DNA of 64,000 nt from Deltaproteobacteria bacterium. GTDB lineage: Bacteria > Desulfobacterota > Dissulfuribacteria > Dissulfuribacterales > QOAL01. This document shows, piece after piece, positions 1-28,974 of this stretch (the stretch's first letter is position 1; the number at the start of each line of letters is the position of its first letter). The notes below the pieces were generated by a model. That model ran no database searches. It saw only the letters and a program-made list of their open reading frames with translations, and was not told where the DNA came from. The position numbers and the translations under genes were made by a program. Location: NCBI GenBank assembly GCA_026992735.1, contig JALWYO010000020.1, positions 10,054-74,053 on the forward strand. Direction: 5' to 3'.

Positions 1-175
1 CCACCATGGCAGCGCCCAGATTGAATCCTGTCACGTCATGAACAAAGACCGCACCGCAAGTACACATGCCATATTCAAAATCTCCCCGGCGCATGGGCTC
101 CATTTCTTTGGGGCGTTCCAGCCTGGCATTACAAAAAGGACAGCGAGGCTCAATAATATCATAACCTGAAGCCAT
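1..175 (-). CDS. small Cys-pair (zinc-ribbon-like) protein, N-terminal part only; gene runs off the left edge
   Basis: ATG at 175-173, 18 nt downstream of the TPR gene stop. Reads MASGYDIIEPRCPFCNARLERPKEMEPMRRGDFEYGMCTCGAVFVHDVTG... Absent from the ORF track because it is edge-truncated. Confidence 0.35.
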   Translation of the reverse strand, partial: MASGYDIIEPRCPFCNARLERPKEMEPMRRGDFEYGMCTCGAVFVHDVTGFNLGAAMV

Positions 176-193
176 AAATATACTCCCGGCCTG

Positions 194-829
194 TCAGTCT
201 GTGCTGGAATTAAGCTTGGCCTCAAAATCAGGGTGCACCGGGTAACCAAGCTGCTTTGCCCTCGATGCCGCTTCAGCGGCCTTCTTGATGTCCCCCTTGT
301 AAAAATAGGCAACTGCCAGATTATTAAAGGCCAGCCCGAACTCCGGTGCAAGACTGGTTGCCTTTTCCGCTGACTCTACAGCCTTGTCGTATTCTTTCAG
401 CTCCACCATAACAGTTGCATAATTGGTAAGGGCCGGCACCATATCGGGCTTCTCTTCAAGGGCCTTTTCAAAGTATTCTGCTGCCTCTGACCACTTACCA
501 AGCTGAAGGTAGGCAGAACCGATATTCGCCATGGCCTCTGCAGCGGCAGGATGTGCCTTCAGGGCCTCCTTGTTTTCCCTTATCCCTTCCTCTAACCTTC
601 CGAGCTGAAAAAAGAGCGTGCCCAGGTTTATCCTGATTTCAAACGAGGCTGGATCTATCTGCAGTGCCTTTTGAAACTCGCCTATGGCATCATCTGACCT
701 GCCTGCCTTCCAGTAGGCAAGGGCAAGCCGGTGATGGGCTACCACCGAGTTCTTATTTTCTGCCAGTTCTTTCTCAAGATCCTGTATTATTTTATCAAGC
801 TCACCTGATTTTATGGGGTTTTTAGCCAT
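194..829 (-). CDS. tetratricopeptide (TPR) repeat protein
   Basis: Repeated 34-aa A..Y...G....A...F..AL motifs. Start chosen at MAKNPIK (ATG 829) because AGGAGG lies 5-10 nt upstream; the track ORF extends to 871. Confidence 0.8.
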   Translation of the reverse strand: MAKNPIKSGELDKIIQDLEKELAENKNSVVAHHRLALAYWKAGRSDDAIGEFQKALQIDPASFEIRINLGTLFFQLGRLEEGIRENKEALKAHPAAAEAMANIGSAYLQLGKWSEAAEYFEKALEEKPDMVPALTNYATVMVELKEYDKAVESAEKATSLAPEFGLAFNNLAVAYFYKGDIKKAAEAASRAKQLGYPVHPDFEAKLNSSTD

Positions 830-984
830 TATTCCTCCTGACATTCCACCATCTTGGATGGACATTAGCAATCTTTTTTAATATCCTACACTGCTATCAG
901 CATAGAAGAATTACAAAATTAACATAAAAATTCGAAATTCCTACATACCCGGGTGACTTATTTCCAATCTCAGGGGCGCCAGCC

Positions 985-1203
985 ATGATAAAAAATATAT
1001 TGAATGAATCAGCGAACAAGAATAAGGAAAGGGATTTAAACTGCATCCTGTGTGGCAGCCCAGCCAAACTTAAAGGCCGCTGAGCCAATGCTACCGTGAC
1101 CTGCAGGTCTTGCGGCGTCGAACTCCCTGCCTCACAGTACCGGGATCAGATTGACGAGATGAAGGATAAGTTGATCTGCGAATTTAATCAAGAACAAAAC
1201 TAA
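985..1203 (+). CDS. candidate 72-codon zinc-ribbon protein with in-frame TGA (possible selenocysteine) or disrupted pseudogene
   Basis: ATG 985 ... CILCGSPAKLKGR-TGA(1081)-ANATVTCRSCGVELPASQYRDQIDEMKDKLICEFNQEQN-TAA 1201. The CxxC...CxxC pair is split by the TGA. A hairpin at 1094-1115 starts 10 nt after the TGA. The ORF ends in the terminator at 1202-1229. Confidence 0.3.
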
Positions 1204-1229
1204 ACAGGCAGCCTAAAGGCTGCCTGTTT
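1202..1229. terminator. bidirectional intrinsic terminator between the small + strand ORF and dsrP
   Basis: Perfect 12-bp stem AAACAGGCAGCC / GGCTGCCTGTTT with TAAA loop. A/T runs lie on both sides, between convergent genes. Confidence 0.7.
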
Positions 1230-1252
1230 ATAATAATTCCTGTTGCAGAAGA

Positions 1253-2413
1253 TCAGATACGCTGTTCTTCTTCCCTTACCGATACCGCAACCTTGTACAA
1301 TATCGTCAGAATCAATCCTCCCACAGCCCATATTGCAGTGGCTATCGTTATTTCAGGGAAGGTAGGATGGTACTCTGTTATAACCTCGAGAGGGTTAGGC
1401 ACGAAACCGCCAATGACCAACCCGACACCCTTGTCTATCCAGGTAGCGAGAAATACGCAGGCACATCCTATCGCAAGCCATAAAGGATTACGCCTGATAG
1501 GAGGAACCAGCAGGATAAATATACCAGCCAAGCCTATTACTATGCACGCCCTCATGAAAGGCACCAAGTTTCCGTATTCGCCTATTCCCCAGAACAGGTA
1601 CTCCAAGGTAGCTTTATGGCCGGGAATATTACTATAAAAGGCCGTGAAAAACTCCATGCCCATGAAGAAAAAGTTCACGATCATGGCATAGCAAATAGTC
1701 CTGGCAACATTCTGAAGCGCATCCTCACCTGCATCAAACTTGGTCACCTTTCTTAAAAAGAGAAGAAGCATGACAAGCAGAGAAGGACCTGCTGCAAAGG
1801 CGGATGCCAGAAAACGAGGGGCCATGATGGCTGTCAGCCAGAAATGACGGCCTGGAAGACCTGCATACAGAAATGCCGTAACCGTATGGATACTGATGGC
1901 CCATGGTATAGAAAGATATATAACCGGCTTTACCCACCGTGGACAGGGCAGACCCTTCTTGTCTGCAAGAAGGGTATTGTACCCACAGATGATGTTGATC
2001 AGCAGGTAGCCATTGAGCACGATCATGTCATAGAAGAGCATTGAATGAGGCGTGGGATGAAGCACCACGTTCATCATCCTCATGGGCTGCCCAATATCCA
2101 CTACAATAAAAAGCAGGCACATGATTACCGCAGCTATGGCAATAAACTCCCCAAAGACCACCACCTTTGCATACTTGGTATAATGATGGAGATACTTTGG
2201 AATGACCAGCATGACAGCACCTGCTGCCACACCAACGAAGTATGTAAACTGGGCGATATAAACGCCCCAGGAGATGTCCCTGCTCATTCCGGTGATACCC
2301 AAACCTACTTTCAACTGGTAAAGGTAGGCAATGAACCCGGCCCCGATTATACAGAGGAGAAATATCACCCATCCCCAGTAAACAGATGATCCTTTTAATG
2401 CCTTTTCAATCAT
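1253..2413 (-). CDS. dsrP: DsrP, NrfD/PsrC-family integral membrane quinone-interacting subunit of DsrMKJOP
   Basis: 386 aa, about 10 predicted TM helices. Last gene of the M-K-J-O-P order. Confidence 0.85.
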   Translation of the reverse strand: MIEKALKGSSVYWGWVIFLLCIIGAGFIAYLYQLKVGLGITGMSRDISWGVYIAQFTYFVGVAAGAVMLVIPKYLHHYTKYAKVVVFGEFIAIAAVIMCLLFIVVDIGQPMRMMNVVLHPTPHSMLFYDMIVLNGYLLINIICGYNTLLADKKGLPCPRWVKPVIYLSIPWAISIHTVTAFLYAGLPGRHFWLTAIMAPRFLASAFAAGPSLLVMLLLFLRKVTKFDAGEDALQNVARTICYAMIVNFFFMGMEFFTAFYSNIPGHKATLEYLFWGIGEYGNLVPFMRACIVIGLAGIFILLVPPIRRNPLWLAIGCACVFLATWIDKGVGLVIGGFVPNPLEVITEYHPTFPEITIATAIWAVGGLILTILYKVAVSVREEEQRI

Positions 2414-2425
2414 GATGACCTCACA

Positions 2426-3247
2426 CTATATCAGGTAAAAAACTGATGGTTTGGTTCCAAGTTCCAGCTTGCGACGCAGGGATACTCTCTCCCGTAGGAT
2501 CTTTCGCACGTTGGAATTCTCGTCTGCCAGATTTCCAAAATGCATAACATCCGGGCAGGCCTCCACGCACCCCGGCTTCTTGCCTTCAGCAAGGCGCTCC
2601 ACACAGAAGTTGCACTTTTCTACTACGCCGCGCATCCTGGTTGGAAATCTCTTGTTGAGTTTTCTGCCCTTGGCCATTTCCTTCTTGAGCATCACTCTGG
2701 GATCCAACCAGTTGAAACTCCGGGAACCGTAGGGACAGGCAGCCATGCAGAACCTGCAGCCAATGCACCTGTGATAATCCTGCGCCACTATGCCGTCCGG
2801 ACGCCTGAATGTAGCCTCAACCGGGCAGACCCTGGCGCATGGCGGCTCGTCGCAGTGGTTGCACATGAGCAGGAAAGGCGAATGCTCCAGTATCTCGTCA
2901 TACTCATTATAGCTGTCTGGAAACGCATGTTCAAATTCGTCTTCCCATATCCACTTTATCTCGTTCTTGGGATCTCCCCAGTTAGGCACATTGTGAAGAT
3001 GATGGCACGTATGAACTATCTTCTCTGCCTTTTCCCTGGTAAGGGCCTTTATGTCAATCAACATGGCAAGACGTGTCTTAGGCCCAGTCTCTTCGGCCTT
3101 TTCATGGTGTTCACCATGATGATGTCCATGTTCCATCTCTGCATCAACCCGTCCCGGCTTGAGCAGCTCAAAGGCACCGCTACTGCCAAGCCCAACAAGC
3201 GTTGAAAGACCAGCTACTTTTAAAAATTTTCTTCTATCCATGCTCAT
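2426..3247 (-). CDS. dsrO: DsrO, periplasmic (Tat-exported) FeS ferredoxin-like subunit
   Basis: Twin-arginine signal MDRRKFLKVAG. Cys clusters CNHCDEPPCARVCP and CIGCRFCMAACP. ATGA overlap with the dsrJ stop. Confidence 0.85.
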   Translation of the reverse strand: MSMDRRKFLKVAGLSTLVGLGSSGAFELLKPGRVDAEMEHGHHHGEHHEKAEETGPKTRLAMLIDIKALTREKAEKIVHTCHHLHNVPNWGDPKNEIKWIWEDEFEHAFPDSYNEYDEILEHSPFLLMCNHCDEPPCARVCPVEATFRRPDGIVAQDYHRCIGCRFCMAACPYGSRSFNWLDPRVMLKKEMAKGRKLNKRFPTRMRGVVEKCNFCVERLAEGKKPGCVEACPDVMHFGNLADENSNVRKILRERVSLRRKLELGTKPSVFYLI

Positions 3248-3642
3248 AGCTTGCTCCCATTTGGATCATAATGGCAATCCCAGCAATAGGGCTGCACTGC
3301 TGCATAATTGTGGCACTTGTCGCAGAAATCCTTCTTGTTTGAATGGCATTTCATGCAAGTGTTCTGCAGACTGATCCAGATCTTTTTGCCTTCCTTGTTT
3401 ACATACCACCTGTTGCCATCTCTAAGGGCCTGGTCCCGCCAGTCATTGAGAAACTGCATGTGTGTGGTAATCATAAATTGGGTATCTTCAACACACTTTT
3501 TCTCTGGCAGTGCCTTTATGGCAGGAGTATCCAGACTGGGCTTAGGCTTAGGCGCTGGAGACCCGTGGTCATATATGAAGGGAAAGAGAAAAATCCCTGC
3601 AAAGATGAGCAATCCGATTATAACTTTACCTGAATCATACAT
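3244..3642 (-). CDS. dsrJ: DsrJ, periplasmic triheme cytochrome c
   Basis: 132 aa with an N-terminal anchor/signal and three CxxCH motifs (CMKCH, CDKCH, CWDCH), plus an extra conserved Cys (KKCVED). Confidence 0.85.
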   Translation of the reverse strand: MYDSGKVIIGLLIFAGIFLFPFIYDHGSPAPKPKPSLDTPAIKALPEKKCVEDTQFMITTHMQFLNDWRDQALRDGNRWYVNKEGKKIWISLQNTCMKCHSNKKDFCDKCHNYAAVQPYCWDCHYDPNGSKL

Positions 3643-5254
3643 CTTCTGTTACCTCCCCTCTTCCTGGAATCGGTTCACCTCGCAGGTTAAGACTTCGATC
3701 ATTTTCCCCTTCCATGATCAATGCATTGGCAACCAACTCCGAGACTCCACAGACATCCACTCCTGGCACCCAGTATTCCATGGAAGCGGGAAGAACCGCT
3801 CTGTCAATGGCGCATACACAGGAGAGCATGTTTACCCCGAAACGCTCATGGACATACTTGACTGCATTGGCCCTGGGTAATCCGCCCCTCAGCCTGAGTT
3901 CCATGTCCTCACCTGCATTCAGACCCGCACCGCTTCCACAGCAGAAGGTCTGTTCCCTGATGGTATTCTCAGGCATGTCATAAAAATTATTACATACGTT
4001 CTTGATCACATACCTGGGCTCCTCGAACATGCCCATGCCACGGGAGGGATTGCAGGAGTCATGATATGTCACCTTCAAATGGTCATTCCTGCTGGGGTCC
4101 AGCTTAAGCTTGTTGTGCTTTATTAGGTCAGCAGTGAATTCTGTAAGGTGGACCATCTTGGCCGACTTGGCGTTTTCAAACTTGGTACCAGTAATAGGAG
4201 ATACCGGTTCTTCAAGGAAATCCGGGGGACCGTTGAAGGTGTTCATGTACTGATGGACCACGCGCCACATGTGCCCACACTCACCACCGAGTATCCACTT
4301 GACGCCCAGTCTCTTGGCCTCCGCATATATCTTTGCATTCAGCCGCTGGGCCATATCCAGGGAGGTAAAGAAACCGAAGTTTCCTCCCTCACTGTTATAG
4401 GTACTCCAGGTATAATCAAGCCCTATGTGCTCAAAAAGCATCAGATAACCCGCCAGGGTAAAAATGCCTGGCTCTGCGAATACGTCACCAGATGGCGTGG
4501 TGAACAGTATTTCCGCTCCCTTCTTGTTGAAGGGTGGATCGATCTTGATGCCCACGAACTCCTCGATATCCATGCACATGAACTCTATGTTCTGTTTGAA
4601 GGTATGAGGCAACAGGCCGAGATGGTTACCCGTCTCATAACAGTTGGCAACAGGCTCCTGTATCCAGTTTATGTTTAGACCAAACAGGTTGAGGAGTTCC
4701 CGGCCGATTATGGTGACTTCAGCTGTATCTATACCGTATGGACAGAAAAGAGAACAGCGGCGGCACTCCGTACACTGAAACATATAGTACCAGATCTCTT
4801 TCAGCACATCCTCGGTAATCTTCCTACCACCGGCGAGACGCCCAAGTATCTTGCCAGCCTTTGTAAACTCACCCCTGTAAACCGACCTTATGAGCTCGGC
4901 CCTTACCACAGGCATGTTCTTGGGATCGCCAGATCCCAGGAAAAAGTGACACTTGTCAGCGCATGCTCCGCACCGTACGCATATATCCATGAATATTTTG
5001 AAGGAACGATGCTTATCGAGCCTTTCCCTCATCCCTTCCAGGAAAGTCTCCTTCCAGTCCTCGGGAAGCCCCCAGTCTTCCTCCACGGGGCTCCAGACGT
5101 GCCCATTGGGCATCCCGACAATTTCTACCTTTTCCGGCTTGGCAGGATAACAGTAGATGCCCGGCTTAATAACAGTGGGAATGTCCATCCAGTCCCTTGT
5201 TGGGGGACGGAGGTCAATCCGCATCATTTCTTGAGGTGTCAATTCTTTTGCCAT
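3635..5254 (-). CDS. dsrK: DsrK, HdrD-like catalytic FeS subunit with CCG domain
   Basis: 539 aa. Ferredoxin motifs CVRCGACADKC and CTECRRCSLFC. C-terminal CCG motif (TFCCGSGAG). Confidence 0.9.
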   Translation of the reverse strand: MAKELTPQEMMRIDLRPPTRDWMDIPTVIKPGIYCYPAKPEKVEIVGMPNGHVWSPVEEDWGLPEDWKETFLEGMRERLDKHRSFKIFMDICVRCGACADKCHFFLGSGDPKNMPVVRAELIRSVYRGEFTKAGKILGRLAGGRKITEDVLKEIWYYMFQCTECRRCSLFCPYGIDTAEVTIIGRELLNLFGLNINWIQEPVANCYETGNHLGLLPHTFKQNIEFMCMDIEEFVGIKIDPPFNKKGAEILFTTPSGDVFAEPGIFTLAGYLMLFEHIGLDYTWSTYNSEGGNFGFFTSLDMAQRLNAKIYAEAKRLGVKWILGGECGHMWRVVHQYMNTFNGPPDFLEEPVSPITGTKFENAKSAKMVHLTEFTADLIKHNKLKLDPSRNDHLKVTYHDSCNPSRGMGMFEEPRYVIKNVCNNFYDMPENTIREQTFCCGSGAGLNAGEDMELRLRGGLPRANAVKYVHERFGVNMLSCVCAIDRAVLPASMEYWVPGVDVCGVSELVANALIMEGENDRSLNLRGEPIPGRGEVTEDV

Positions 5255-5272
5255 GATATCTCTTCCCTTTAT

Positions 5273-6268
5273 TTATTCTCTCTCCAAAGGTAATCCAGCC
5301 TCTTTCATATAATCCCTATACATATCCTCATACTCTTCATATGAATGGAACTTAGGTGGCTTCCGCCACGGATTTTCATGATATGCCATCCTGTTGGTGT
5401 TGGCCAGATTCCTGGTGGGACTCATGAATACACCTCCCATGTGCATTAGCTTACTGAACGGGAAATAGGCCAGCAGTGTACTCACCAAGGCTATATGCAC
5501 GAAAAAGATTGCTCCGATTCCTTCAGGCATGACAGGATGAAAACTTGCAATGCCAGTTGCAAGGGCCTTTACAGCCGTAATATCAACTCTATACACAAAA
5601 CGCATCAGCAGGCCTGAGATGACTATGCCAAGAATAAGAAAGAGCGGAAAATAATCTGCAACAAGAGACATAAATCTCATCTTAGGCAGGCATAGACGGC
5701 GAATCAGGAGGCCGGTAACACATAACAGGATAAATATATCCGTTAAATAAATTGGAGGAATGCCAATCTGGAACATCCCGTCCACAGCATCCAAGGTCTC
5801 AACAAATCCGGGAACAGGCTGCACAAAAAGCCTGAGATGACGAATAGCAATAATAAGAAAGGAATAATGGAACCCAAGGGCCAGAAGCCAGAGCCACTTG
5901 GTGGGATGATGTATCAGCCAGCCTGACCTAAGGTCTGTCCTCATATTCCTGAAAAGAGACCTGAAGCAGCAAACCTCGAAAAACATCCTCATGATCACTC
6001 CGCCCGTGGTGCTCGGGTTATCTATCTTCGACCACTTGATCCACGGAAGAGAGAATTCCTGACCACCTGTAGTGGGAATGCGAAATGGTACAGGAGACTT
6101 CGCCCAGTTGACCACCTTGAGGATAAAACCTACAAGAAAGATGGCAAAGGCCACGTAAGGCAATGCCACTCCGATCAACGGCCTAAGACCAGGCACTGAT
6201 GCGCCTATCAAGGCCGCTATTACAATCCCTACTACTGCCCCGAATGCCACAATGATACGCGTTATCAT
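5273..6268 (-). CDS. dsrM: DsrM, NarI-like membrane dihaem cytochrome b
   Basis: 331 aa, multi-TM. First gene of the M-K-J-O-P order, with tight spacing to dsrK. Confidence 0.85.
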   Translation of the reverse strand: MITRIIVAFGAVVGIVIAALIGASVPGLRPLIGVALPYVAFAIFLVGFILKVVNWAKSPVPFRIPTTGGQEFSLPWIKWSKIDNPSTTGGVIMRMFFEVCCFRSLFRNMRTDLRSGWLIHHPTKWLWLLALGFHYSFLIIAIRHLRLFVQPVPGFVETLDAVDGMFQIGIPPIYLTDIFILLCVTGLLIRRLCLPKMRFMSLVADYFPLFLILGIVISGLLMRFVYRVDITAVKALATGIASFHPVMPEGIGAIFFVHIALVSTLLAYFPFSKLMHMGGVFMSPTRNLANTNRMAYHENPWRKPPKFHSYEEYEDMYRDYMKEAGLPLERE

Positions 6269-7256: not shown

Positions 7257-8996
7257 ATGAGAATACTGCTTGTAAATCCCTATTGCCTGGACCAGAGGAT
7301 ACAGGATTATGATATCCGGGTGCCTCCTATAGGATTGTACTATATAGCAGCATGCCTGATTGAGGCAGGGCATGAATGTTCCATACTCAATCTCTGGAAC
7401 AAACAGGGACAACCGCAGCTTGTAAGGTCTGAGATACGCAGGTTCAATCCCGACCTGGTAGGCGTATCCATCCTGCATGCAACCCGCTGGGGAGGCATCG
7501 ACATAGCCCGGATCACCAAGGCAGTCTTCCCAGAAGTCCCTGTAGTATTTGGAGGGCCTGGCGCTACTTTTCTATGGCATCATCTCCTGACGCATTTCCC
7601 AGAGCTGGACTATATAGTTCTCGGGGAAGGAGAACTTACCATACTGAGGCTGGCTGAATTGCTCCAGCATGACAGAAAGACCGAGATCCCAGCCCTGCCT
7701 GGCCTGGCCTTCAGACAGGGAGGAAAGCCTGAAAAAAATGATCCGCCAGATTTTATAAAAGACCTGGATAGCCTTCCTGATCCATCCAGATATTTCAAAT
7801 TCCAGCATATTATTTCCTCCAGAGGATGCCCATGGAACTGCGCCTTCTGCGGATCTCCGCGGATATGGAAACGCAAGGTCAGGTTTCACAGCCCTTCATA
7901 TTTTGTTGATCAGATAGAAAATCTCTACAGGGCAGGAACCAGCTTCTTTTATATATCAGACGATACATTTACCCTGAAAAAAGAACGCGTAATACAGATA
8001 TGCAAACTGATACTGGAAAGGAAGCTCGATATAAGCTGGGCCGCTATTTCAAGGGTCAACAATATAGATGAAGACATCCTGTACTGGATGCGGCGTGCGG
8101 GCTGCACACAAATAAGTTACGGCGTAGAAAGCGGCTCTCCAAAAATAAGGAAGGCCCTGAACAAAAATCTTAAAAACAGTCAGATTCATCAGGCATTCGA
8201 GATAACGGCATCGCATGGCATCATGCCCAGGGCATATATCATATATGGTTCACCTGGCGAAACCAGGAAAACCATAACTGAAACCATCAGGCTAATGGAG
8301 CGGATAAGGCCATTGAGCGCGATATTCTATATCCTGGATATCTTTCCAGGCACTGCTCTTTACGACATTTTCAAAAAGAATACCGGTGTCAATGACGATA
8401 TCTGGCTGAAACGCATCGAAGACATCATGTATTTCCAGACAGATCCATCTTTGAGCCAGGATACCGTACTGGAATTTGGTAAAAGACTGAGAAAGGCATT
8501 TTACAGAAATCTGCCCAAATTTGCAGACTCGATCAAACTGGTTAAACACCAGGAACTGTATCCTCTGCATGCAGACTTTCTCTCCAGACTGGCAATGACC
8601 TTTGCCTTCGGAGACTATTCAAGGATAAAGGATATTCCAGCCTCGGACGCAGTGGCCGAAAGGCTCTTTAACAGATCACTGCAATATGTGCCAGACCACC
8701 GGGCATTCCTCGGCCTTGGCATGCTGCTCCAAAGGAGAGGGAAACACAGAGATGTAATAGAAATTCTCAAGAAAGGACTCAAGCATTTCCCAGAGTCTCC
8801 GGACCTGCAGGTGTGTCTTGGCGTCAGTCTTATGAATACAGGCAGACTGGAACAGGCCCTTGAGCTTTTTATTAAAAATCCTTCCAACAGCCAGGCCGGG
8901 AAGTATGCAGAATATTGCAGACAACTGATCAGGAACAGCAGAACTTCCCAGAATACACCTGGAAAGTTTCCACAGAATATACTGCACAAAAGATAG
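7257..8996 (+). CDS. B12-binding-domain radical SAM protein with C-terminal TPR region
   Basis: N-terminal MRILLVNPY... B12-binding-like fold. Radical SAM motif CPWNCAFC. The C-terminal ~130 aa have TPR-like repeats. Confidence 0.8.
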   Translation: MRILLVNPYCLDQRIQDYDIRVPPIGLYYIAACLIEAGHECSILNLWNKQGQPQLVRSEIRRFNPDLVGVSILHATRWGGIDIARITKAVFPEVPVVFGGPGATFLWHHLLTHFPELDYIVLGEGELTILRLAELLQHDRKTEIPALPGLAFRQGGKPEKNDPPDFIKDLDSLPDPSRYFKFQHIISSRGCPWNCAFCGSPRIWKRKVRFHSPSYFVDQIENLYRAGTSFFYISDDTFTLKKERVIQICKLILERKLDISWAAISRVNNIDEDILYWMRRAGCTQISYGVESGSPKIRKALNKNLKNSQIHQAFEITASHGIMPRAYIIYGSPGETRKTITETIRLMERIRPLSAIFYILDIFPGTALYDIFKKNTGVNDDIWLKRIEDIMYFQTDPSLSQDTVLEFGKRLRKAFYRNLPKFADSIKLVKHQELYPLHADFLSRLAMTFAFGDYSRIKDIPASDAVAERLFNRSLQYVPDHRAFLGLGMLLQRRGKHRDVIEILKKGLKHFPESPDLQVCLGVSLMNTGRLEQALELFIKNPSNSQAGKYAEYCRQLIRNSRTSQNTPGKFPQNILHKR

Positions 8997-9170: not shown

Positions 9171-10598
9171 ATGAACACTAATACACCCTGCCCAAAACTG
9201 GCCTTTGCAGCACTCAGAGGAGGATCAGGCAAAACCATTGTTTCCCTTGGCTTGACAAGAGCCTTGCTCAACAGAGGCAAGAATGTAGCTGTTTTTAAGA
9301 AAGGGCCTGATTATATAGATGCCGCCTGGCTTTCCAGAGCAGCGGACAGGCCATGTTACAACCTGGACACGTTTCTCATGGGGCAAAACGATGTTATCCG
9401 CTCGTTTGTCCGCCGCTCTGGCAATGCAGACATCTCTGTCATAGAGGGCAACAGGGGGCTTTATGACGGCATGGACACCAAGGGAACCTTTAGCACCGCG
9501 GAACTGGCCCTGATGCTGGGAGCACCCGTAGTGCTTGTTGTGGACTGCACAAAGGTCACCCGCACCATGGCCGCCATGATCTGTGGATGCAGAGACCTTG
9601 ATCCCAGAGTCAATATCGCGGGAGTCATTCTTAACAGAGTGGCTGGCAACAGACACAGGAAAATACTGAAATCATCGATAGAAGAATACAGCCGCATCCC
9701 GGTTTTAGGTGCCATACCACGCCTAAAAAAAGATCCGCTGCCCATGAGGCACCTGGGCCTCACGCCTACAGATGAATACTCAGGCCCGGATGAAGCACTT
9801 AATCTCCTGGCACAAATAGTAGAGGATCACATAGATATTGATAAGCTTATGGACACTGCAGGGCAGTCCATTGCTGAAATCCCTGAATTTGAACATGCTC
9901 AGGGAACTGAATATGCTGGCAGACATGCTAAAAATATCACACTAGGGGTATTGCGAGACGCCTCTTTCCAGTTCTACTATCCAGAGAACATCGAGGCACT
10001 GGAACAGGCGGGCGCCAGAGTGGTATTCCTGAATGCAGTCAATGACTGCCGCCTCCCGGAACTTCATGCCATGTACATAGGAGGAGGTTTCCCAGAGACA
10101 CAGGCCCATCTTCTCAGTTCCAACAAGGATTTCATGGCCGGGCTCAGGAAACTCATTGAAGCCGGATTGCCAGTCTATGCTGAATGCGGTGGCCTAATGT
10201 ATCTCGGCAGGAATATATTGTGGAAGGGAAATTCATTCAGGATGCTCGATGTAATAAACTGGGACTTTGTCCTTAACAAGAAGCCGGTTGGGCATGGTTA
10301 CAGTATACTGAAATTTCACAGAGACTCTCCATTCTTTAAACAGGGAGACAGGATACAGGGCCATGAATTTCACTATTCCCAGCCAGTCCCCACTGGCGAC
10401 AGACAAAAAGGCCATTTCTGCTGCAAGGTTTCCAGAGGGCATGGTTTTGACGGCACAACAGACGGATTTTGCTATAAAAATGTCCTGGGGCTATACACAC
10501 ACATCCATGCCCTTGGAAACAGGAAATGGGCCCGGTCAATGGTAGATGCGGCTACACGTTTTAAAAATATGATATTTGAACAGCCGGATATCCCATAA
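9171..10598 (+). CDS. cobyrinic acid a,c-diamide synthase family amidotransferase (CbiA/CobB-like; possibly DsrN sirohaem amidase)
   Basis: 475 aa. N-terminal nucleotide-binding GGSGKT. C-terminal glutamine amidotransferase motif ECGGLMYLG. The DsrN reading is inferred from proximity to dsrMKJOP and a downstream ferredoxin. Confidence 0.8.
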   Translation: MNTNTPCPKLAFAALRGGSGKTIVSLGLTRALLNRGKNVAVFKKGPDYIDAAWLSRAADRPCYNLDTFLMGQNDVIRSFVRRSGNADISVIEGNRGLYDGMDTKGTFSTAELALMLGAPVVLVVDCTKVTRTMAAMICGCRDLDPRVNIAGVILNRVAGNRHRKILKSSIEEYSRIPVLGAIPRLKKDPLPMRHLGLTPTDEYSGPDEALNLLAQIVEDHIDIDKLMDTAGQSIAEIPEFEHAQGTEYAGRHAKNITLGVLRDASFQFYYPENIEALEQAGARVVFLNAVNDCRLPELHAMYIGGGFPETQAHLLSSNKDFMAGLRKLIEAGLPVYAECGGLMYLGRNILWKGNSFRMLDVINWDFVLNKKPVGHGYSILKFHRDSPFFKQGDRIQGHEFHYSQPVPTGDRQKGHFCCKVSRGHGFDGTTDGFCYKNVLGLYTHIHALGNRKWARSMVDAATRFKNMIFEQPDIP

Positions 10599-12149: not shown

Positions 12150-12237
12150 GCCGAAGTGGCGGAATTGGTAGACGCGCTAGATTCAGGATCTAGTGGGAGC
12201 TATTCCCGTGGGAGTTCGAATCTCCCCTTCGGCACCA
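12150..12237 (+). tRNA. tRNA-Leu (anticodon CAG), CCA encoded
   Basis: Acceptor stem GCCGAAG/CTTCGGC. Anticodon arm CTAGA-TTCAGGA-TCTAG. Long variable arm. T arm GGGAG-TTCGAAT-CTCCC. Ends in A-CCA. Confidence 0.9.
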
Positions 12238-15616: not shown

Positions 15617-15943
15617 TATCGGATCTTATGCCACACCCCATCTTCAAATATGATTCAAACGAATACCGGTGGATTGGAAAAAGAGGGGGAAAACAGGCTT
15701 TATCTTTCTTAAAAGACGAGCACTATCTAACAGCCATAAATCTACAGAACATGACAACCAATGTCATCAGGACAATATTCAGTACCGCAACAACATATAA
15801 GCCGCACGAGATCTATGGCCTTTTTTGTAACAGGATAGATTCATAAATATATTCCGATCTGCATCCAGCAGAATTATTATTTATCCCCACCAACCGCACC
15901 GTAAATCCGTTTATATAAACCCAGACGGGGTTATAGCCTTAAA

Positions 15944-16123
15944 CCCCCGCCGTGCCGTGTCTGTTGGGTCTATTGAACCTGAGAAGCCTCAGGTGGGTGT
16001 CATTTCCGCTTCCAACGGAAAGGGCTGTTCTCCCTTTCCACTCTTCCACGGAGTTACGACTCCCTTGTACGGGGTGTTGGCTCAACAAACTTGCAACAGC
16101 CCACGAACACAGCAGGGAAATTT
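15944..16123 (-). ncRNA. ssrS: 6S RNA candidate
   Basis: Lies directly downstream of zapA. The minus-strand 5' end AAAUUUCCCUGCUGUGUUCGUGGGCUG resembles the E. coli 6S 5' end (AUUUCUCUGAGAUGUUCG). The 5' and 3' ends form a long closing stem rich in G-U pairs. Length about 180 nt. Ends are approximate. Confidence 0.6.
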
Positions 16124-26144: not shown

Positions 26145-26707
26145 GCCCTTATTGCCCCTATATTCAGCAGGTCCTCTGCAAGTTCTGTCATGGGCAGGCC
26201 CACCACATTGGTGTACGAGCCTTTTATCTCCCTGACCATGAACCCTCCGATACCCTGGACCGCATAAGCCCCTGCCTTATCCAGGGGCTCTCCGGTAGCA
26301 CAATAATTTTCTATCACTTTCAGGCCAAAATCAGCCAGAAAAACCCGGCTTTCCAGGCACCTGCTGATATCAATATTATCCGCCAGATGTTTAATACAGA
26401 AACCTGTAAAAACCTGGTGCCAGCGTCCGCAAAGCTCAGTCAGCATGGAAACCGCTTCGGCATAATCTGAAGGCTTGCCGAATACCCGACCGGACAGGGC
26501 AACGCAGGTATCCGCGCCTATGACCACGGAATCCGGCCTTGAACTGGAGATCTCTTCAGCCTTTGCTGCCGCATTCAGACGCACAAGATCTTCAGGAGGC
26601 AGCCCTAAATCCCGGCCAAGCTCTTCTGCAGTAGCGGCATGAATATCAAAATCCAGCCCAAGAGCAGCAAGCAGATCCTTCCTGCGCGGCGATCCCGAAG
26701 CCAGCAC
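26129..26707 (-). CDS. maf: Maf-like nucleoside triphosphate pyrophosphatase
   Basis: LASGSPRR motif. Start set at GTG 26707, overlapping the tatD stop (TAGTG). An alternative ATG lies at 26755. Confidence 0.8.
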   Translation of the reverse strand: MLASGSPRRKDLLAALGLDFDIHAATAEELGRDLGLPPEDLVRLNAAAKAEEISSSRPDSVVIGADTCVALSGRVFGKPSDYAEAVSMLTELCGRWHQVFTGFCIKHLADNIDISRCLESRVFLADFGLKVIENYCATGEPLDKAGAYAVQGIGGFMVREIKGSYTNVVGLPMTELAEDLLNIGAIRACAVD

Positions 26708-27492
26708 TAAGGACTTTTCAGCCCGAAAAGCGCCTCTGCATTCTCTGTGGTGCAACGTGCGATCTCCTCTGTGGGAACATTTCTTATATCAGCCAGTCTT
26801 TCCGCAACAATTCTCACCCTTGCCGGCTCATTGGGCTTGCCCCGAAACGGCACGGGAGAAAGAAACGGGCTGTCCGTCTCTATAAGCATCCTGTCAAAAG
26901 GAACGAATTTCGCAACATCTGTCAGGTCCTGGGCCTTGGGGAATGTGATCACTCCGGTAAAGGAGATAAAGAAGCCCAGATCCAGCACCTTTTCGGCCAT
27001 GGCAGTATCCCCTGAAAAACAATGAAATACCCCAGAAATCCCTGATTTTCTGGAAAAATTGCGTAAAATGGCGAGACAATCCTCATGGGCCTCCCTGTCA
27101 TGAATTATCACCGGCAGGCCCATGGAAGATGCTGCATGGAGCTGAGCCTCAAACGCTGCCTTTTGAACATCCCGTGGCGTATGATCCCTATAATAGTCCA
27201 GGCCTATCTCTCCCCAGGCAACTACACCGGGACTGGCTGCAAGCTCCCTCAGCCTGGACAGAGACATATCATCGAACCCACTCGCATCATTGGGATGCAA
27301 TCCTGTTGCTGCAAAAACCTGGGGAAAGAACTGGGTATACTGAACAGATCTGGAGGAACTGGCGATATCTATCCCAACGGAAATAACCCTGCTGACTCCC
27401 TGTGCCTTGGCTCTGGCAAGCACCTCATCAATAGACGCATTGTCCTGGATCATGTCCAGGTGTGCATGGGTATCCACCAGTGATATACTCAC
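26707..27492 (-). CDS. tatD: TatD-family metal-dependent hydrolase/DNase
   Basis: 261 aa with an N-terminal DTHAHL motif and a conserved ETDSP motif. Confidence 0.9.
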   Translation of the reverse strand: MSISLVDTHAHLDMIQDNASIDEVLARAKAQGVSRVISVGIDIASSSRSVQYTQFFPQVFAATGLHPNDASGFDDMSLSRLRELAASPGVVAWGEIGLDYYRDHTPRDVQKAAFEAQLHAASSMGLPVIIHDREAHEDCLAILRNFSRKSGISGVFHCFSGDTAMAEKVLDLGFFISFTGVITFPKAQDLTDVAKFVPFDRMLIETDSPFLSPVPFRGKPNEPARVRIVAERLADIRNVPTEEIARCTTENAEALFGLKSP

Positions 27493-27531
27493 AGCAAAAC
27501 CGCCCTTCCCGGCCTTCTCCCCGGCAAATTG

Positions 27532-28974
27532 TCAATCAGTGATTACCCTGGGAATGGAAATTATGCAGGTAGTTCCCCCAATGCGGTTTGTGGTAAGCCT
27601 AAGGGTACCACCGTGCTGCTCGATAATCTGTTTTGACCTTGACAGCCCCAAGCCCAGAGAATGGAACTTTGTAGTGAAAAATGGATTATCCACCTTCCGG
27701 AAATGCCCCCGTGCTATACCGAGACCGCTATCAGAAATTCGGAGTTCTGCATCATCGCCCTTCCTGGCAACCACTATCACAAGGACTCCCCCATCAGGCA
27801 TTGCCTCCAGGGAATTTCTCAATATATTCAGCACTGCCTGCTTGAACTTTTCAACATCTGCCATGACAGTTACGGCAGCCTCTGGATAGTTTTCATGGAG
27901 AGCTATGCCGATTTCCTCGATTTCAGCCTTAAACATGGCGACAATCACCCTAACTGTAGAGCCCAGATCCACAAGTTCCATGGACATGGGACCTGAATCC
28001 TGAAGCTCGGCTATGCGGGAAAGCGTCTGTTCCAGTTTTTCCGACTCCCGAATTATGGTATCAAGATATTCACGCTTTAATGGATCACTCTCTTTCCGCC
28101 TCATGACAGTGGAAATCCCACCTATGGCTGAAAGAGGATTTTTCATCTCGTGCAACAGCCTGTCCAGCAACATGCCAATAGCTGAAAACTTTTCCGTCTC
28201 TACAAGAAGATGCTTCTGCTCTTCAACAGCCTTGTTGATCTCTTGGAGCCTCTTCATTCGGCCTTCCAGCGTACGGCATATCTTGCTCTGGCAAATGGCT
28301 ATGGAACCAAGGCCGACAAAAAGGTCCAGGCTGTATAGCAGGTGTTCTGAAATCCTGTTTTCGGTATAGAGATTGTCTGCCACAATCACACCATATTTTG
28401 CTCCATGGGCAAAAAGAGGCGCTACGGCAAACTCCATGTTCCCAAGCAGTTCACACATCTTGCTGGATTCAACAATACCGGGGCCGCCATGCCTTGCAAC
28501 GATAAAAGAACGGTTTTCGATAAGGGATCGAACCAGAATGTTCTCGTGGTCCTCCATGGATATCTTTATGGACGTAGCCAGGATATTCATAGGATGGCTT
28601 GCATCATTAAGCTGACCCCTTGCTCCATCCAGGATATCAAAGAGCCCCATATCTTCTCTGGCTATCTCATGCCAGATCCTGCCTGCCTCTTCAGGACTTC
28701 CAGGCCCCAGGCCGCACCTGCCCTCAAGCGTATGCCCGTCATCGCTGACGATAAACAAAAACGCCCTGTTAAACCCCAGGCCTTCCCCGCTGGTAGTTCC
28801 TGCAAGCACAGCATTAAGAATGTCATCCAACTCCCCGGCAGTTACAAATGTCTCATTGAGCTTGCGGACAAGATCCCGAAGCGGCCTTAAAGAACCACCC
28901 GAGGTTGTTGAGCCAGAGAAAGGCTCATTTCCAAAGGAGGGCGAATCAATCTCCATACAATGTACGTTCTGCAT
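27532..28974 (-). CDS. soluble sensor histidine kinase with GAF-like N-terminal domains
   Basis: H-box LHEMKNPLSAI. HATPase N/G boxes (NSLEAM, DSGLGI, GLGLS). No TM helices. No adjacent response regulator. Confidence 0.8.
   Translation of the reverse strand: MQNVHCMEIDSPSFGNEPFSGSTTSGGSLRPLRDLVRKLNETFVTAGELDDILNAVLAGTTSGEGLGFNRAFLFIVSDDGHTLEGRCGLGPGSPEEAGRIWHEIAREDMGLFDILDGARGQLNDASHPMNILATSIKISMEDHENILVRSLIENRSFIVARHGGPGIVESSKMCELLGNMEFAVAPLFAHGAKYGVIVADNLYTENRISEHLLYSLDLFVGLGSIAICQSKICRTLEGRMKRLQEINKAVEEQKHLLVETEKFSAIGMLLDRLLHEMKNPLSAIGGISTVMRRKESDPLKREYLDTIIRESEKLEQTLSRIAELQDSGPMSMELVDLGSTVRVIVAMFKAEIEEIGIALHENYPEAAVTVMADVEKFKQAVLNILRNSLEAMPDGGVLVIVVARKGDDAELRISDSGLGIARGHFRKVDNPFFTTKFHSLGLGLSRSKQIIEQHGGTLRLTTNRIGGTTCIISIPRVITD

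What the first reader, a model, noticed from the sequence alone, without database searches (positions are those of the whole stretch)
985..1203. Zinc-ribbon mini-gene with in-frame TGA and downstream hairpin: candidate selenoprotein or fresh pseudogene
A single frame reads MIKNILNESANKNKERDLNCILCGSPAKLKGR-TGA-ANATVTCRSCGVELPASQYRDQIDEMKDKLICEFNQEQN-TAA.

The two CxxC knuckles of an apparent zinc ribbon lie on either side of the TGA at 1081. Neither half makes sense alone.

Ten nt after the TGA there is a hairpin, CCGU-GACC-UGCA-GGUC-UU-GCGG (1094-1115). Its apical loop starts 21 nt from the UGA, and the loop contains UG. That position and form are broadly compatible with bacterial SECIS elements.

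The ORF ends exactly at a strong bidirectional terminator shared with dsrP. Desulfobacterota are known to be rich in selenoproteins.

Weak points are the absence of a clear Shine-Dalgarno sequence and an AT-rich first half.
Basis: partly seen in the sequence, partly recalled or inferred. Interest (0 to 1): 0.6.

Follow-up and report, generated by a model that had tools for sequence, protein, structure and literature searches.

The report
Unannotated small zinc-ribbon selenoprotein gene
This is a real but unannotated 72-codon gene whose in-frame TGA almost certainly encodes selenocysteine; it belongs to a small-protein family already predicted to be selenoproteins (OS_HP3 / NCBIfam NF041197), so it is a correct catch rather than a new kind of thing.

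Summary
Window 985-1203 (+) is one frame of 72 codons with TGA as codon 33, between two CxxC knuckles.

It is not a fresh pseudogene:
- The TGA is identical in four independent assemblies of this organism.
- It is kept at the same codon in two diverged orthologues, also convergent on dsrP, and in six more distant homologues.
- Five other homologues checked at DNA level carry TGC or TGT there.
- Substitutions fall mainly on third codon positions on both sides of the TGA.

NCBIfam NF041197, "dual CXXC motif small (seleno)protein", matches at 39.0 bits (E 6.5e-10; cut-off 40). The orthologues score 41.5 and 40.6. The literature lists this family as OS_HP3 (Zhang & Gladyshev 2007) and "hypothetical protein DW" (deep-Sep 2025).

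A hairpin at 1097-1120 has apical loop GGUCU, lies 22 nt after the UGA and scores -8.8 kcal/mol. It fits the published bacterial SECIS consensus and shares UGCAGGUCU with E. coli fdhF.

Not shown: Sec machinery in this genome, expression, and function.

Verdict: new, unannotated member of a known predicted selenoprotein family.

The parts
985..1203 (+). Coding sequence of a 72-residue dual-CxxC small selenoprotein. ATG is at 985 and TAA at 1201-1203. Codon 33 is UGA, read as Sec.
   Evidence: - Translation is given.
- Orthologues L001 and L002 have the same 72-codon length, with TGA at codon 33.
- NCBIfam NF041197 scores 39.0 bits, E 6.5e-10.
- The sequence is identical in 4 assemblies.
1081..1083 (+). 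In-frame UGA, the proposed selenocysteine codon (residue 33), in the conserved context GGN-(CGN/AGA/AAA/ACU)-UGA-GCN-AAY-GCN.
   Evidence: - TGA is present at the aligned codon in 9/9 Sec-form sequences; TGC or TGT in 5/5 Cys-form sequences.
- TGA is the commonest ordinary stop codon in the window, 25 of 47 ORFs.
1097..1120 (+). Predicted SECIS-like hairpin. The stem pairs 1097-1105 with 1111-1115 and 1117-1120, with C1116 bulged. The apical loop is 1106-1110 (GGUCU), 22 nt after the UGA. The hairpin overlaps the codons of the second CxxCG knuckle.
   Evidence: - Energy is -8.8 kcal/mol, and it meets the four published bSECIS constraints (constraints from PMC13188914).
- The core register is kept in 13 of 14 family sequences: 78.6% of cells pair, against 29-46% in slid controls.
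- It shares UGCAGGUCU with the E. coli fdhF SECIS.
1042..1053 (+). First CxxC knuckle (Cys20, Cys23; CILCG).
   Evidence: These columns are invariant in the alignment of 17 family members.
1102..1113 (+). Second CxxC knuckle (Cys40, Cys43; CRSCG).
   Evidence: These columns are invariant. The AF2 model places it between strands 37-40 and 46-48.
1177..1179 (+). Cys65 in the C-terminal helix, a possible resolving cysteine (inference).
   Evidence: It is conserved in the 3 orthologues. A Cys occurs near this helix position in many but not all family members.
1201..1230 (.). Terminator-like 13-bp hairpin between the convergent mini-gene and dsrP. It overlaps the TAA stop.
   Evidence: It was found by the consensus scan. 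An equivalent GC-rich hairpin follows the stop codon in L001 and L002.
859..887 (+). Weak sigma-70-like promoter match (TGGACA-17-TATCCT) upstream of the mini-gene. This is a consensus match only.
   Evidence: One search found 1 site where 1.3 are expected by chance, so this is not evidence of function.

Best explanation
Window 985-1203 (+) is a free-standing, currently unannotated gene. It lies between a TPR-protein gene and the end of dsrMKJOP and encodes a 72-residue selenoprotein of the 'dual CXXC motif small (seleno)protein' family (NCBIfam NF041197; OS_HP3 of Zhang & Gladyshev 2007; 'hypothetical protein DW' of deep-Sep 2025).

**Decoding.** UGA codon 33 is read as selenocysteine by SelB and Sec-tRNASec. 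These are recruited by a hairpin immediately downstream (1097-1120, apical loop GGUCU, 22 nt after the UGA). That hairpin is written into the codons of the second CxxCG knuckle.

**Protein.**
- It is predicted to be a three-stranded zinc ribbon in which Cys20, 23, 40 and 43 hold one metal ion, followed by a long C-terminal helix.
- Sec33 sits in the conserved G-R-U-A-N-A turn between strands 1 and 2.
- That turn is the likely reactive site. It would act in redox chemistry or in binding or transferring a chalcogen or metal, possibly with Cys65 of the helix as partner.

**Shown here.**
- Conservation of the frame and of the TGA.
- Sec/Cys alternation at the aligned position.
- The family match.
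- A hairpin that fits the SECIS model.

**Inferred.**
- Actual Sec insertion.
- Metal binding.
- Chemistry at Sec33.
- Any link to Dsr.
For: **Orthologues.** Two orthologues (L001 and L002, 'Thermodesulfatator sp.' MAGs) have the same 72 codons with TGA at codon 33 and the same convergent position on dsrP.

**Codon-level selection.** Differences by codon position, window vs L001:
- Upstream of the TGA (codons 17-32): 4/2/13.
- Downstream of the TGA: 6/4/18.
- The pattern is similar in the other pairs, so a single frame is under purifying selection across the TGA.

**Not an assembly error.** The TGA and the whole gene are identical in four independent assemblies.

**Wider family.**
- Exhaustive HMMER found 18 hits at E 1e-3 or better. 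Sixteen are 54-82 aa proteins; the other two are long zinc-ribbon repeat proteins outside the family.
- At the aligned residue they show C or 'W'.
- All six 'W' hits whose DNA was checked carry TGA, apparently translated as Trp by the source's gene call.
- All five Cys forms checked carry TGC or TGT.

**Family model.**
- NF041197 matches the window at 39.0 bits and the orthologues at 41.5 and 40.6 bits, against a cut-off of 40.
- Sixteen of the 17 aligned members match it.
- The family is listed as a predicted selenoprotein family with a predicted SECIS (PMC1976440; PMC13188914).

**Genetic code.** TGA is the normal and commonest stop codon here, 25 of 47 ORFs.

**Hairpin.**
- It meets the bSECIS constraints.
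- Such a hairpin at -8.8 kcal/mol or better follows 6.3% of control TGAs.
- All 9 Sec forms have a conforming hairpin at -4.5 kcal/mol or better, against 19.8% of controls.
- It resembles the fdhF apical stem-loop.

**Structure.** The AF2 model has pLDDT 78 overall and about 90 in the core. It shows strands 26-30, 37-40 and 46-48 and a helix at 49-71.
Against: - No selA, selB, selC or selD was found in the 64-kb window. The only tRNA is tRNA-Leu, and 10 size-matched ORFs are other proteins. No second selenoprotein gene was seen in the window. Sec-decoding capacity of this organism is therefore unverified.
- The window product scores 1 bit below the curated NF041197 cut-off.
- The hairpin is not significantly more stable than shuffles in this sequence. 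Only 4 of 9 Sec forms reach the -7.5 kcal/mol criterion in my implementation. Cys-form homologues have an equivalent hairpin, so part of it is a by-product of the xxC-UGC-N6-UGC-GGN codons.
- The Shine-Dalgarno and promoter signals are weak.
- There are no expression data.
- The fold search gave only generic, non-significant zinc-ribbon matches, with E above 0.1.
Confidence: 0.85

Rival explanations
1. The UGA is recoded, but to cysteine rather than selenocysteine, or to a mixture of the two. A tRNASec-like selC* tRNACys with a UCA anticodon would deliver it, possibly through a SelB-type factor and the same hairpin.
For: - selC* tRNACys genes were reported in Thermodesulfobacteria and related anaerobes, and a UCA-anticodon form decodes an opal Sec codon as Cys in E. 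coli (PMC5389517).
- Cys is functionally acceptable at this position, because 7 of the 16 small family members carry it.
Against: - All selC*-carrying genomes in that study also had the complete Sec apparatus.
- No selC* or any tRNASec-like gene is in the window.
- Maintaining TGA in at least 7 lineages when TGC is one step away argues for an advantage of Sec itself.
Confidence: 0.06
2. Fresh pseudogene. A recent nonsense mutation (TGC or TGG to TGA) has inactivated a small zinc-ribbon gene.
For: - Cys-form homologues exist.
- The gene is unannotated in all public assemblies.
Against: - The TGA is at the same codon in orthologues whose products are only 57-61% identical, and in six further distant lineages.
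- The 39 codons downstream remain under third-position-biased, purifying selection.
- The gene is identical in four assemblies.
Confidence: 0.02
3. There is no read-through. Either the interval encodes two separate micro-ORFs (32 aa ending at the TGA, and 35 aa from GTG 1096), or it does not code at all and the conservation is due to RNA or regulatory elements downstream of dsrP.
For: - ORF listing reports the two pieces separately.
- The Shine-Dalgarno sequence is weak.
- A conserved hairpin lies in the region.
Against: - The GTG at 1096 is not conserved as a start: GTT in L001, GTA in L004-L006 and L008, ATT in L009.
- The four codons between the TGA and that GTG are conserved as A-N-A-x with synonymous changes.
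- The whole product matches a protein family model across the TGA, residues 20-62.
- Neither half carries a complete ribbon.
Confidence: 0.03
4. The TGA is read as Trp or Gly because the organism uses an alternative genetic code (table 4 or 25), as the 'W' in database homologues would suggest.
For: Public protein catalogues show W at this position for 9 homologues.
Against: - TGA terminates 25 of 47 long ORFs in the window. These include a histidine-kinase gene followed in frame by tatD.
- The loci of 'W' homologues do not translate to the stored protein under table 11. The W therefore comes from how the source's gene call read TGA, most simply under table 4, and does not show that Trp is inserted.
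- No homologue examined has TGG.
Confidence: 0.01

Closest known systems
NCBIfam NF041197 'dual CXXC motif small (seleno)protein'. This is the same family as OS_HP3 (Zhang & Gladyshev 2007, NAR 35:4952, PMC1976440) and 'hypothetical protein DW' (deep-Sep, PMC12013277), as tabulated in PMC13188914.
   Same: - Small size (72 aa).
- Two invariant CxxC motifs.
- Sec or Cys between them in a G-x-U context.
- HMM match over residues 20-62 (E 6.5e-10).
- A predicted SECIS directly after the UGA.
- Occurrence in sulfate-reducing, anaerobic lineages.
   Different: - The window copy scores 39.0 bits, 1 bit under the curated cut-off. It is not annotated in any of the four public assemblies.
- This subclade has a 16-residue unconserved N-terminal tail and a well conserved C-terminal helix (YRDQIDEMK...IC[ED]FN).
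- It holds a fixed position convergent on dsrP.
- No member has been studied experimentally, so the family supplies a name and not a mechanism.
E. coli fdhF SECIS element
   Same: - The hairpin follows the UGA directly, inside the coding sequence.
- The apical stem-loop is GCA-GGUC-UGC, with G and U in the loop.
- The 9-mer UGCAGGUCU is shared.
   Different: - The loop is 5 nt (GGUCU) rather than 4 nt, and lies 4 nt further from the UGA.
- The bulge is a C on the 3' side rather than the bulged U17 on the 5' side.
- The sequence similarity is partly forced by Cys-Arg-Ser-Cys-Gly codons.
- SelB binding is untested.
Generic zinc-ribbon and rubredoxin-like knuckle proteins (Lar, LysW Zn-ribbon, Elf1, RPB9/TFIIS C-ribbon, ribosomal L37ae/L43e, ZifS)
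   Same: - Two CxxC(G) knuckles.
- A predicted three-stranded sheet.
- Sub-threshold Pfam and structural similarity.
   Different: - No Pfam family reaches its gathering score.
- Foldseek E-values are all above 0.1.
- None of these families has a conserved Sec/Cys in the turn between the knuckles.

Membership tests
NCBIfam NF041197 (dual CXXC motif small (seleno)protein; OS_HP3) | Whole-protein HMM score at or above the curated cut-off (40 bits). | tested here: inconclusive
   The window product scores 39.0 bits with U replaced by C (E 6.5e-10) and 30.8 bits with X. Orthologues L001 and L002 score 41.5 and 40.6 bits.
NCBIfam NF041197 (dual CXXC motif small (seleno)protein; OS_HP3) | A small protein with two CxxC motifs. 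| tested here: met
   The product is 72 aa. C20-x2-C23 and C40-x2-C43 are invariant across 17 aligned members.
NCBIfam NF041197 (dual CXXC motif small (seleno)protein; OS_HP3) | Sec (TGA) or Cys at one conserved position between the two motifs (listed motif GxU / RxU). | tested here: met
   G31-R32-U33 in the window. TGA is found in 9/9 Sec forms and TGC or TGT in 5/5 Cys forms at the same column. The motifs are as listed in PMC13188914.
NCBIfam NF041197 (dual CXXC motif small (seleno)protein; OS_HP3) | The nearest detectable homologues are themselves members. | tested here: met
   Sixteen of the 17 sequences in alignment A3 match NF041197 at E 1e-3 or better, with a best E of 7.8e-12.
Bacterial selenoprotein gene (Sec-UGA recoding) | An in-frame UGA with coding conservation on both sides and Cys-containing homologues. 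| tested here: met
   Third-position-biased divergence occurs upstream and downstream of the TGA. Sec/Cys pairing at the aligned column is shown.
Bacterial selenoprotein gene (Sec-UGA recoding) | A bSECIS hairpin meeting the published constraints: apical loop 3-9 nt with G in its first two positions, upper stem 4-16 bp, 16-37 nt from the UGA, and MFE of -7.5 kcal/mol or lower (PMC13188914 Fig. 2 legend). | tested here: met
   - Window values are loop GGUCU, 5-bp upper stem, 22-nt spacing and -8.8 kcal/mol.
- This used my own implementation, not bSECISearch.
- Only 4 of 9 Sec-form members reach -7.5 kcal/mol.
- 8.8% of control TGAs also pass.
Bacterial selenoprotein gene (Sec-UGA recoding) | selA, selB, selC (tRNASec) and selD present in the same genome. 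| not testable with these tools
   - Only 64 kb is available.
- The window holds tRNA-Leu only.
- Ten candidate-sized ORFs are other proteins.
- Indirectly, isolate Thermodesulfobacteria carrying selC* have the full apparatus (PMC5389517).
Bacterial selenoprotein gene (Sec-UGA recoding) | Selenium is actually incorporated at the UGA. | not testable with these tools
   This needs 75Se labelling or mass spectrometry.
Zinc-ribbon fold | Two Cys knuckles at the turns of beta-hairpins that bind one metal ion. | tested here: inconclusive
   - The AF2 model has three strands and a helix, with core pLDDT of about 90.
- Pfam zinc-ribbon families match only below threshold.
- Foldseek hits are zinc ribbons but with E above 0.1.
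- Metal binding is untested.

The most novel reading that the evidence does not exclude
Two non-exclusive novel readings remain open.

**(a) A Dsr-linked role.** In this Thermodesulfatator-like clade the mini-selenoprotein holds a fixed position at the end of dsrMKJOP. It could be a lineage-specific accessory of dissimilatory sulfite reduction, for example a Sec-based sulfur or persulfide relay towards DsrC/DsrK, rather than a generic redox protein.

**(b) Co-encoded RNA signal and protein motif.** The recoding hairpin is built from the codons of the structural CxxCG knuckle and persists in Cys-form relatives. The family would then carry a latent SECIS that allows repeated switching between Sec and Cys. 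Alternatively the UGA is read as Cys by a selC*-type tRNA in some hosts.
Probability: 0.1. Interest if true: 0.6.

Novelty: new member of a known kind. Interest (0 to 1): 0.3.

Why it matters
**Annotation.**
- The gene is missing from all four public assemblies of this organism.
- The products of the window gene and of its two orthologues are absent from a 15-billion-protein collection.
- More distant homologues are stored there with a false Trp at the Sec position.

It is therefore a concrete example of how small selenoprotein genes are lost or mistranslated in metagenome catalogues.

**Biology.**
- It adds a Thermodesulfatator-like, dsrMKJOP-adjacent subclade to a predicted selenoprotein family with no reported experimental study or known function.
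- Cys-form homologues of this family do exist, although none were known when OS_HP3 was first described. That strengthens the original prediction.

It does not change what is known about Sec decoding.

Tried and rejected
- **Word-indexed protein search.** The 72-aa product (U replaced by C) found nothing. The family is too short and too diverged for that index.
- **Metagenome contig scan.** It returned only a duplicate of L002.
- **Rfam.** At gathering thresholds there was no hit in the region, only 6S RNA and a tRNA elsewhere.
- **Stability of the post-TGA region in isolation.** It is no better than shuffled sequence, so single-sequence folding cannot support or refute a SECIS here.
- **A second selenoprotein gene in the window.** I looked for ORF pairs joined by a TGA. 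The best candidate (27532) is a histidine kinase followed by tatD, which are two genes. The others lie antisense to long genes or overlap the next gene.
- **Sec machinery among ten size-matched ORFs.** They are MreB, MtnA, AtpD, CobB/DsrN-like, GatB, a B12 radical-SAM protein, TolC, UvrA and two with no family match.
- **Exact-sequence look-up of the product and its halves.** None is in the collection. U is not accepted as a residue letter.
- **P0011 and P0016.** These multi-stretch hits are tandem generic zinc-ribbon repeats without the G-R-U/C turn, so they are not family members.
- **Structure search against the PDB.** It returned only generic zinc ribbons with E above 0.1 and gave no functional lead.
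- **Genomic context outside the close clade.** Neighbours include ABC transporters, a HesB-like gene, a formyltransferase, a hemerythrin, YjeF and a lactamase_B-fold protein. The context is not conserved, so guilt by association with dsr is weak.

Full report
**1. The observation**

Window 985-1203 on the plus strand reads as a single frame of 72 codons.

- CxxC motifs lie at codons 20/23 and 40/43, on either side of the TGA.
- The gene sits in the 381-bp gap between a TPR-protein gene (194-871, minus strand) and the 3' end of dsrP (1253-2413, minus strand). dsrP is the last gene of a dsrMKJOP operon at 1253-6268.
- A 13-bp terminator-like hairpin at 1201-1230 overlaps the stop codon.
- Folded alone, the region after the TGA is no more stable than shuffled sequence (z = +0.34).
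- There is no convincing Shine-Dalgarno sequence, and only one weak promoter-like match.

**2. Is it a gene, and is the TGA meant to be there?**

A scan of one genome per species found two orthologues, in MAGs labelled Thermodesulfatator sp. (L001 and L002).

- Both are 72 codons long and have TGA as codon 33. Both converge on dsrP with a terminator hairpin after the stop.
- Both also have the TPR-protein gene upstream (82% identity).
- The neighbours are very similar to the window: DsrP 95-96%, DsrK 98% (window vs L001), DsrO 86-88% and the TPR protein 82%.
- The mini-protein is only 57-61% identical overall. There is therefore real divergence to read.

Differences by codon position in the conserved core, window vs L001:

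| Region | Position 1 | Position 2 | Position 3 |
|---|---|---|---|
| Codons 17-32, upstream of TGA | 4 | 2 | 13 |
| Codons 34-72, downstream of TGA | 6 | 4 | 18 |

The other two pairs show the same pattern. One reading frame is thus under purifying selection on both sides of the TGA.

- The four codons directly after the TGA (A-N-A-T/K) vary synonymously.
- The GTG at 1096, which could restart translation, is not conserved. It is GTT, GTA or ATT in seven of the other eight TGA-carrying sequences and GTG only in L002 and L007.
- The same gene, with the same TGA, is identical in four independent assemblies of the window's organism. No gene is called in that gap in any of them.
- TGA is the commonest ordinary stop codon in the window, 25 of 47 long ORFs. 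The organism therefore does not use a TGA-sense genetic code.

Sequencing error, fresh pseudogene, two separate micro-ORFs and alternative genetic code are all rejected on this evidence.

**3. Sec/Cys alternation in a wider family**

A word-indexed protein search found nothing. An exhaustive HMMER search of 1.84 billion representatives, with X at residue 33, found 18 hits at E 1e-3 or better.

- Sixteen are proteins of 54-82 aa with the same architecture. The other two (620 and 324 aa) are generic zinc-ribbon repeat proteins outside the family.
- At the aligned residue they show either C or 'W'.
- I fetched the DNA for six 'W' proteins. All have TGA there and do not translate to the stored protein under table 11. 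The W therefore reflects how the source's gene call read TGA, most simply under table 4, and not a Trp codon.
- I fetched the DNA for five 'C' proteins. They have TGC or TGT.

With the window and its two orthologues, nine sequences from about seven lineages carry TGA in the context G-[RKT]-U-x-N-A, and relatives carry Cys at the same column. This is the standard comparative signature of a selenoprotein family.

**4. What is already known**

NCBIfam NF041197, 'CxxC_Se_CxxC: dual CXXC motif small (seleno)protein', has 53 positions and a cut-off of 40 bits.

- It matches the window product (U replaced by C) at 39.0 bits, E 6.5e-10, over residues 20-62.
- It matches the orthologues at 41.5 and 40.6 bits.
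- Sixteen of the 17 aligned homologues also match it.
- Pfam gives only sub-threshold zinc-ribbon hits.

[quoted passage not shown] It lists NF041197 again as 'hypothetical protein DW', motif GxU, from deep-Sep 2025 (PMC13188914; PMC12013277). The 2007 paper lists OS_HP3 with two selenoprotein genes, no Cys homologues at that time, and a predicted SECIS in its Fig. 5E (PMC1976440). None of these sources assigns the family a function or cites experimental work on it.

The window gene is therefore a new, unannotated member of a known predicted selenoprotein family.

**5. The recoding signal**

The published bacterial SECIS consensus (PMC13188914, Fig. 2 legend) requires four things:

- an apical loop of 3-9 nt with G in its first two positions;
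- an upper stem of 4-16 bp;
- 16-37 nt between the UGA and the loop;
- an MFE of -7.5 kcal/mol or lower.

My own implementation of these rules finds the following in the window:

- Stem: 1097-1105 paired with 1111-1115 and 1117-1120, with C1116 bulged.
- Loop: GGUCU at 1106-1110.
- Spacing: 22 nt.
- Upper stem: 5 bp.
- Energy: -8.8 kcal/mol.

The core pairs (C-UGC-A with U-GC-GG) come from the codons xxC-UGC-N6-UGC-GGN of the second knuckle.

*Family comparison.*
- The register is shared by 13 of 14 family sequences.
- On the 14-sequence alignment, 78.6% of cells pair, against 29-46% when the partner is slid by 1-3 columns.
- The covariation score is 0.228, against 0.115 or less in the slid controls. 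It is reached by 23 of 500 shuffles.
- The two outer variable pairs show compensatory types such as CG, UA, GC, GU and UG.

*Rate among control TGAs.*
- All nine Sec forms have a model-conforming hairpin at -4.5 kcal/mol or better, with spacing of 17-23 nt. Among 2,413 control TGAs in the window the rate is 19.8%.
- Four of the nine reach -7.5 kcal/mol, against 8.8% of controls.

The apical part, GCA-GGUCU-UGC, closely resembles the E. coli fdhF SECIS, GCA-GGUC-UGC. I read that sequence from NC_000913.3. In the window the loop lies 4 nt further from the UGA.

*Caveats.*
- Cys-form homologues have an equivalent hairpin, and three of five reach -7.5 kcal/mol. The hairpin is therefore not Sec-specific and is partly a by-product of the amino-acid motif.
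- My scan is not bSECISearch.
- SelB binding is untested.

**6. The protein**

AlphaFold2 on the 17-sequence alignment gives mean pLDDT 78, and about 90 for residues 20-60.

- It predicts strands 26-30, 37-40 and 46-48 and a helix at 49-71.
- That is a zinc ribbon followed by a long helix.
- From the secondary structure, Sec33 lies in the turn between strands 1 and 2. This is the best conserved non-Cys stretch of the family: G31 is invariant and the motif is [RKT]-U/C-x-N-A-[KRT]-[VI].
- I had no access to coordinates and could not measure distances to the metal site or to Cys65.
- Foldseek against the PDB returned only generic zinc ribbons (L37ae/L43e, RPB9-type C-ribbons, topoisomerase I, ZifS), all with E above 0.1.

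My mechanistic proposal is that four Cys hold a structural metal and that Sec33 is an exposed reactive chalcogen, possibly cycling with Cys65. This is inference.

**7. Context and function**

The position next to dsrMKJOP is conserved only within the close clade (window, L001 and L002). More distant members sit next to unrelated genes. A Dsr-related role is possible but unsupported.

**8. What remains open**

- Sec machinery could not be checked. The window has only tRNA-Leu, ten size-matched ORFs are other proteins, and no second selenoprotein gene was evident.
- Indirect support is that Thermodesulfobacteriota are among the most selenoprotein-rich bacteria (PMC13188914).
- Further indirect support is that selC*-bearing isolate genomes, which include Thermodesulfobacteria, have the complete selA/B/C/D set (PMC5389517).
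- The same paper leaves a minor alternative open: that the UGA is read as Cys by a selC*-type tRNACys.

**9. Verdict**

The selenoprotein reading is supported and the pseudogene reading is rejected.

The object is an unannotated member of a predicted selenoprotein family known since 2007 and covered by a curated NCBI model. It is a good annotation catch of modest scientific novelty.

Noticed in passing
P0001, P0002, P0004, P0005, P0009, P0015 (loci L004-L009): Public metagenome protein catalogues store these homologues with Trp at the Sec position. The DNA has TGA, so the gene caller apparently used a TGA=Trp code on short contigs. This is a systematic way in which small selenoproteins are mistranslated rather than missed.
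   Followed up: yes
L010, L011, L013 (Cys-form homologues), about 17-37 nt after the TGC/TGT codon: Cys-form members keep a hairpin in the same register as the putative SECIS of the Sec forms, at -9.9 to -17.8 kcal/mol. It could be a latent or fossil SECIS, or a by-product of the xxC-UGC-N6-UGC-GGN codons.
   Followed up: partly
window 985-1203 compared with 194-6268: The mini-gene evolves much faster than its neighbours. The product is 57-61% identical to the L001 and L002 orthologues, against 95-96% for DsrP, 98% for DsrK (window vs L001) and 82% for the TPR protein. The first 16 residues are essentially unconserved.
   Followed up: partly
window 15940-16121 (-): A 6S (SsrS) RNA gene: Rfam RF00013 at 74.2 bits, with the full-length model matched.
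   Followed up: no
window 12150-12237 (+): tRNA-Leu(CAG), the only tRNA gene in the 64-kb window.
   Followed up: no
window 1-175 (-): This is the start of a 581-aa HEAT/TPR-repeat protein, full length in L016-L018. Its first 40 residues carry a CPFC...CTC cysteine motif (MASGYDIIEPRCPFCNARLERPKE...GMCTCG), so a zinc-ribbon-like N-terminus sits two genes away from the mini-gene.
   Followed up: no
window 7257-8996 (+) and 9171-10598 (+): A B12-binding radical-SAM protein and a cobyrinic acid a,c-diamide synthase homologue lie just upstream of dsrMKJOP. The latter is CobB/CfbB-like and is likely DsrN, the sirohaem amidase.
   Followed up: no
window 26707-28974 (-): A histidine-kinase gene ends in TGA, and a tatD-family hydrolase gene follows in the same frame 13 codons later. 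It looks like a 759-codon TGA-interrupted ORF but is two genes.
   Followed up: yes
L006 494-832 (-): The gene convergent on a Sec-form family member encodes a HesB/Fe-S_biosyn (PF01521, weak hit) protein. From my own knowledge, that family itself has selenoprotein members.
   Followed up: no
P0011 (620 aa), P0016 (324 aa): These proteins carry 5-7 tandem generic zinc-ribbon repeats (CPxCG...CPxCG and CTCExCG...HFCS). They were picked up by the mini-protein query but lack the G-R-U/C turn and are not family members.
   Followed up: partly
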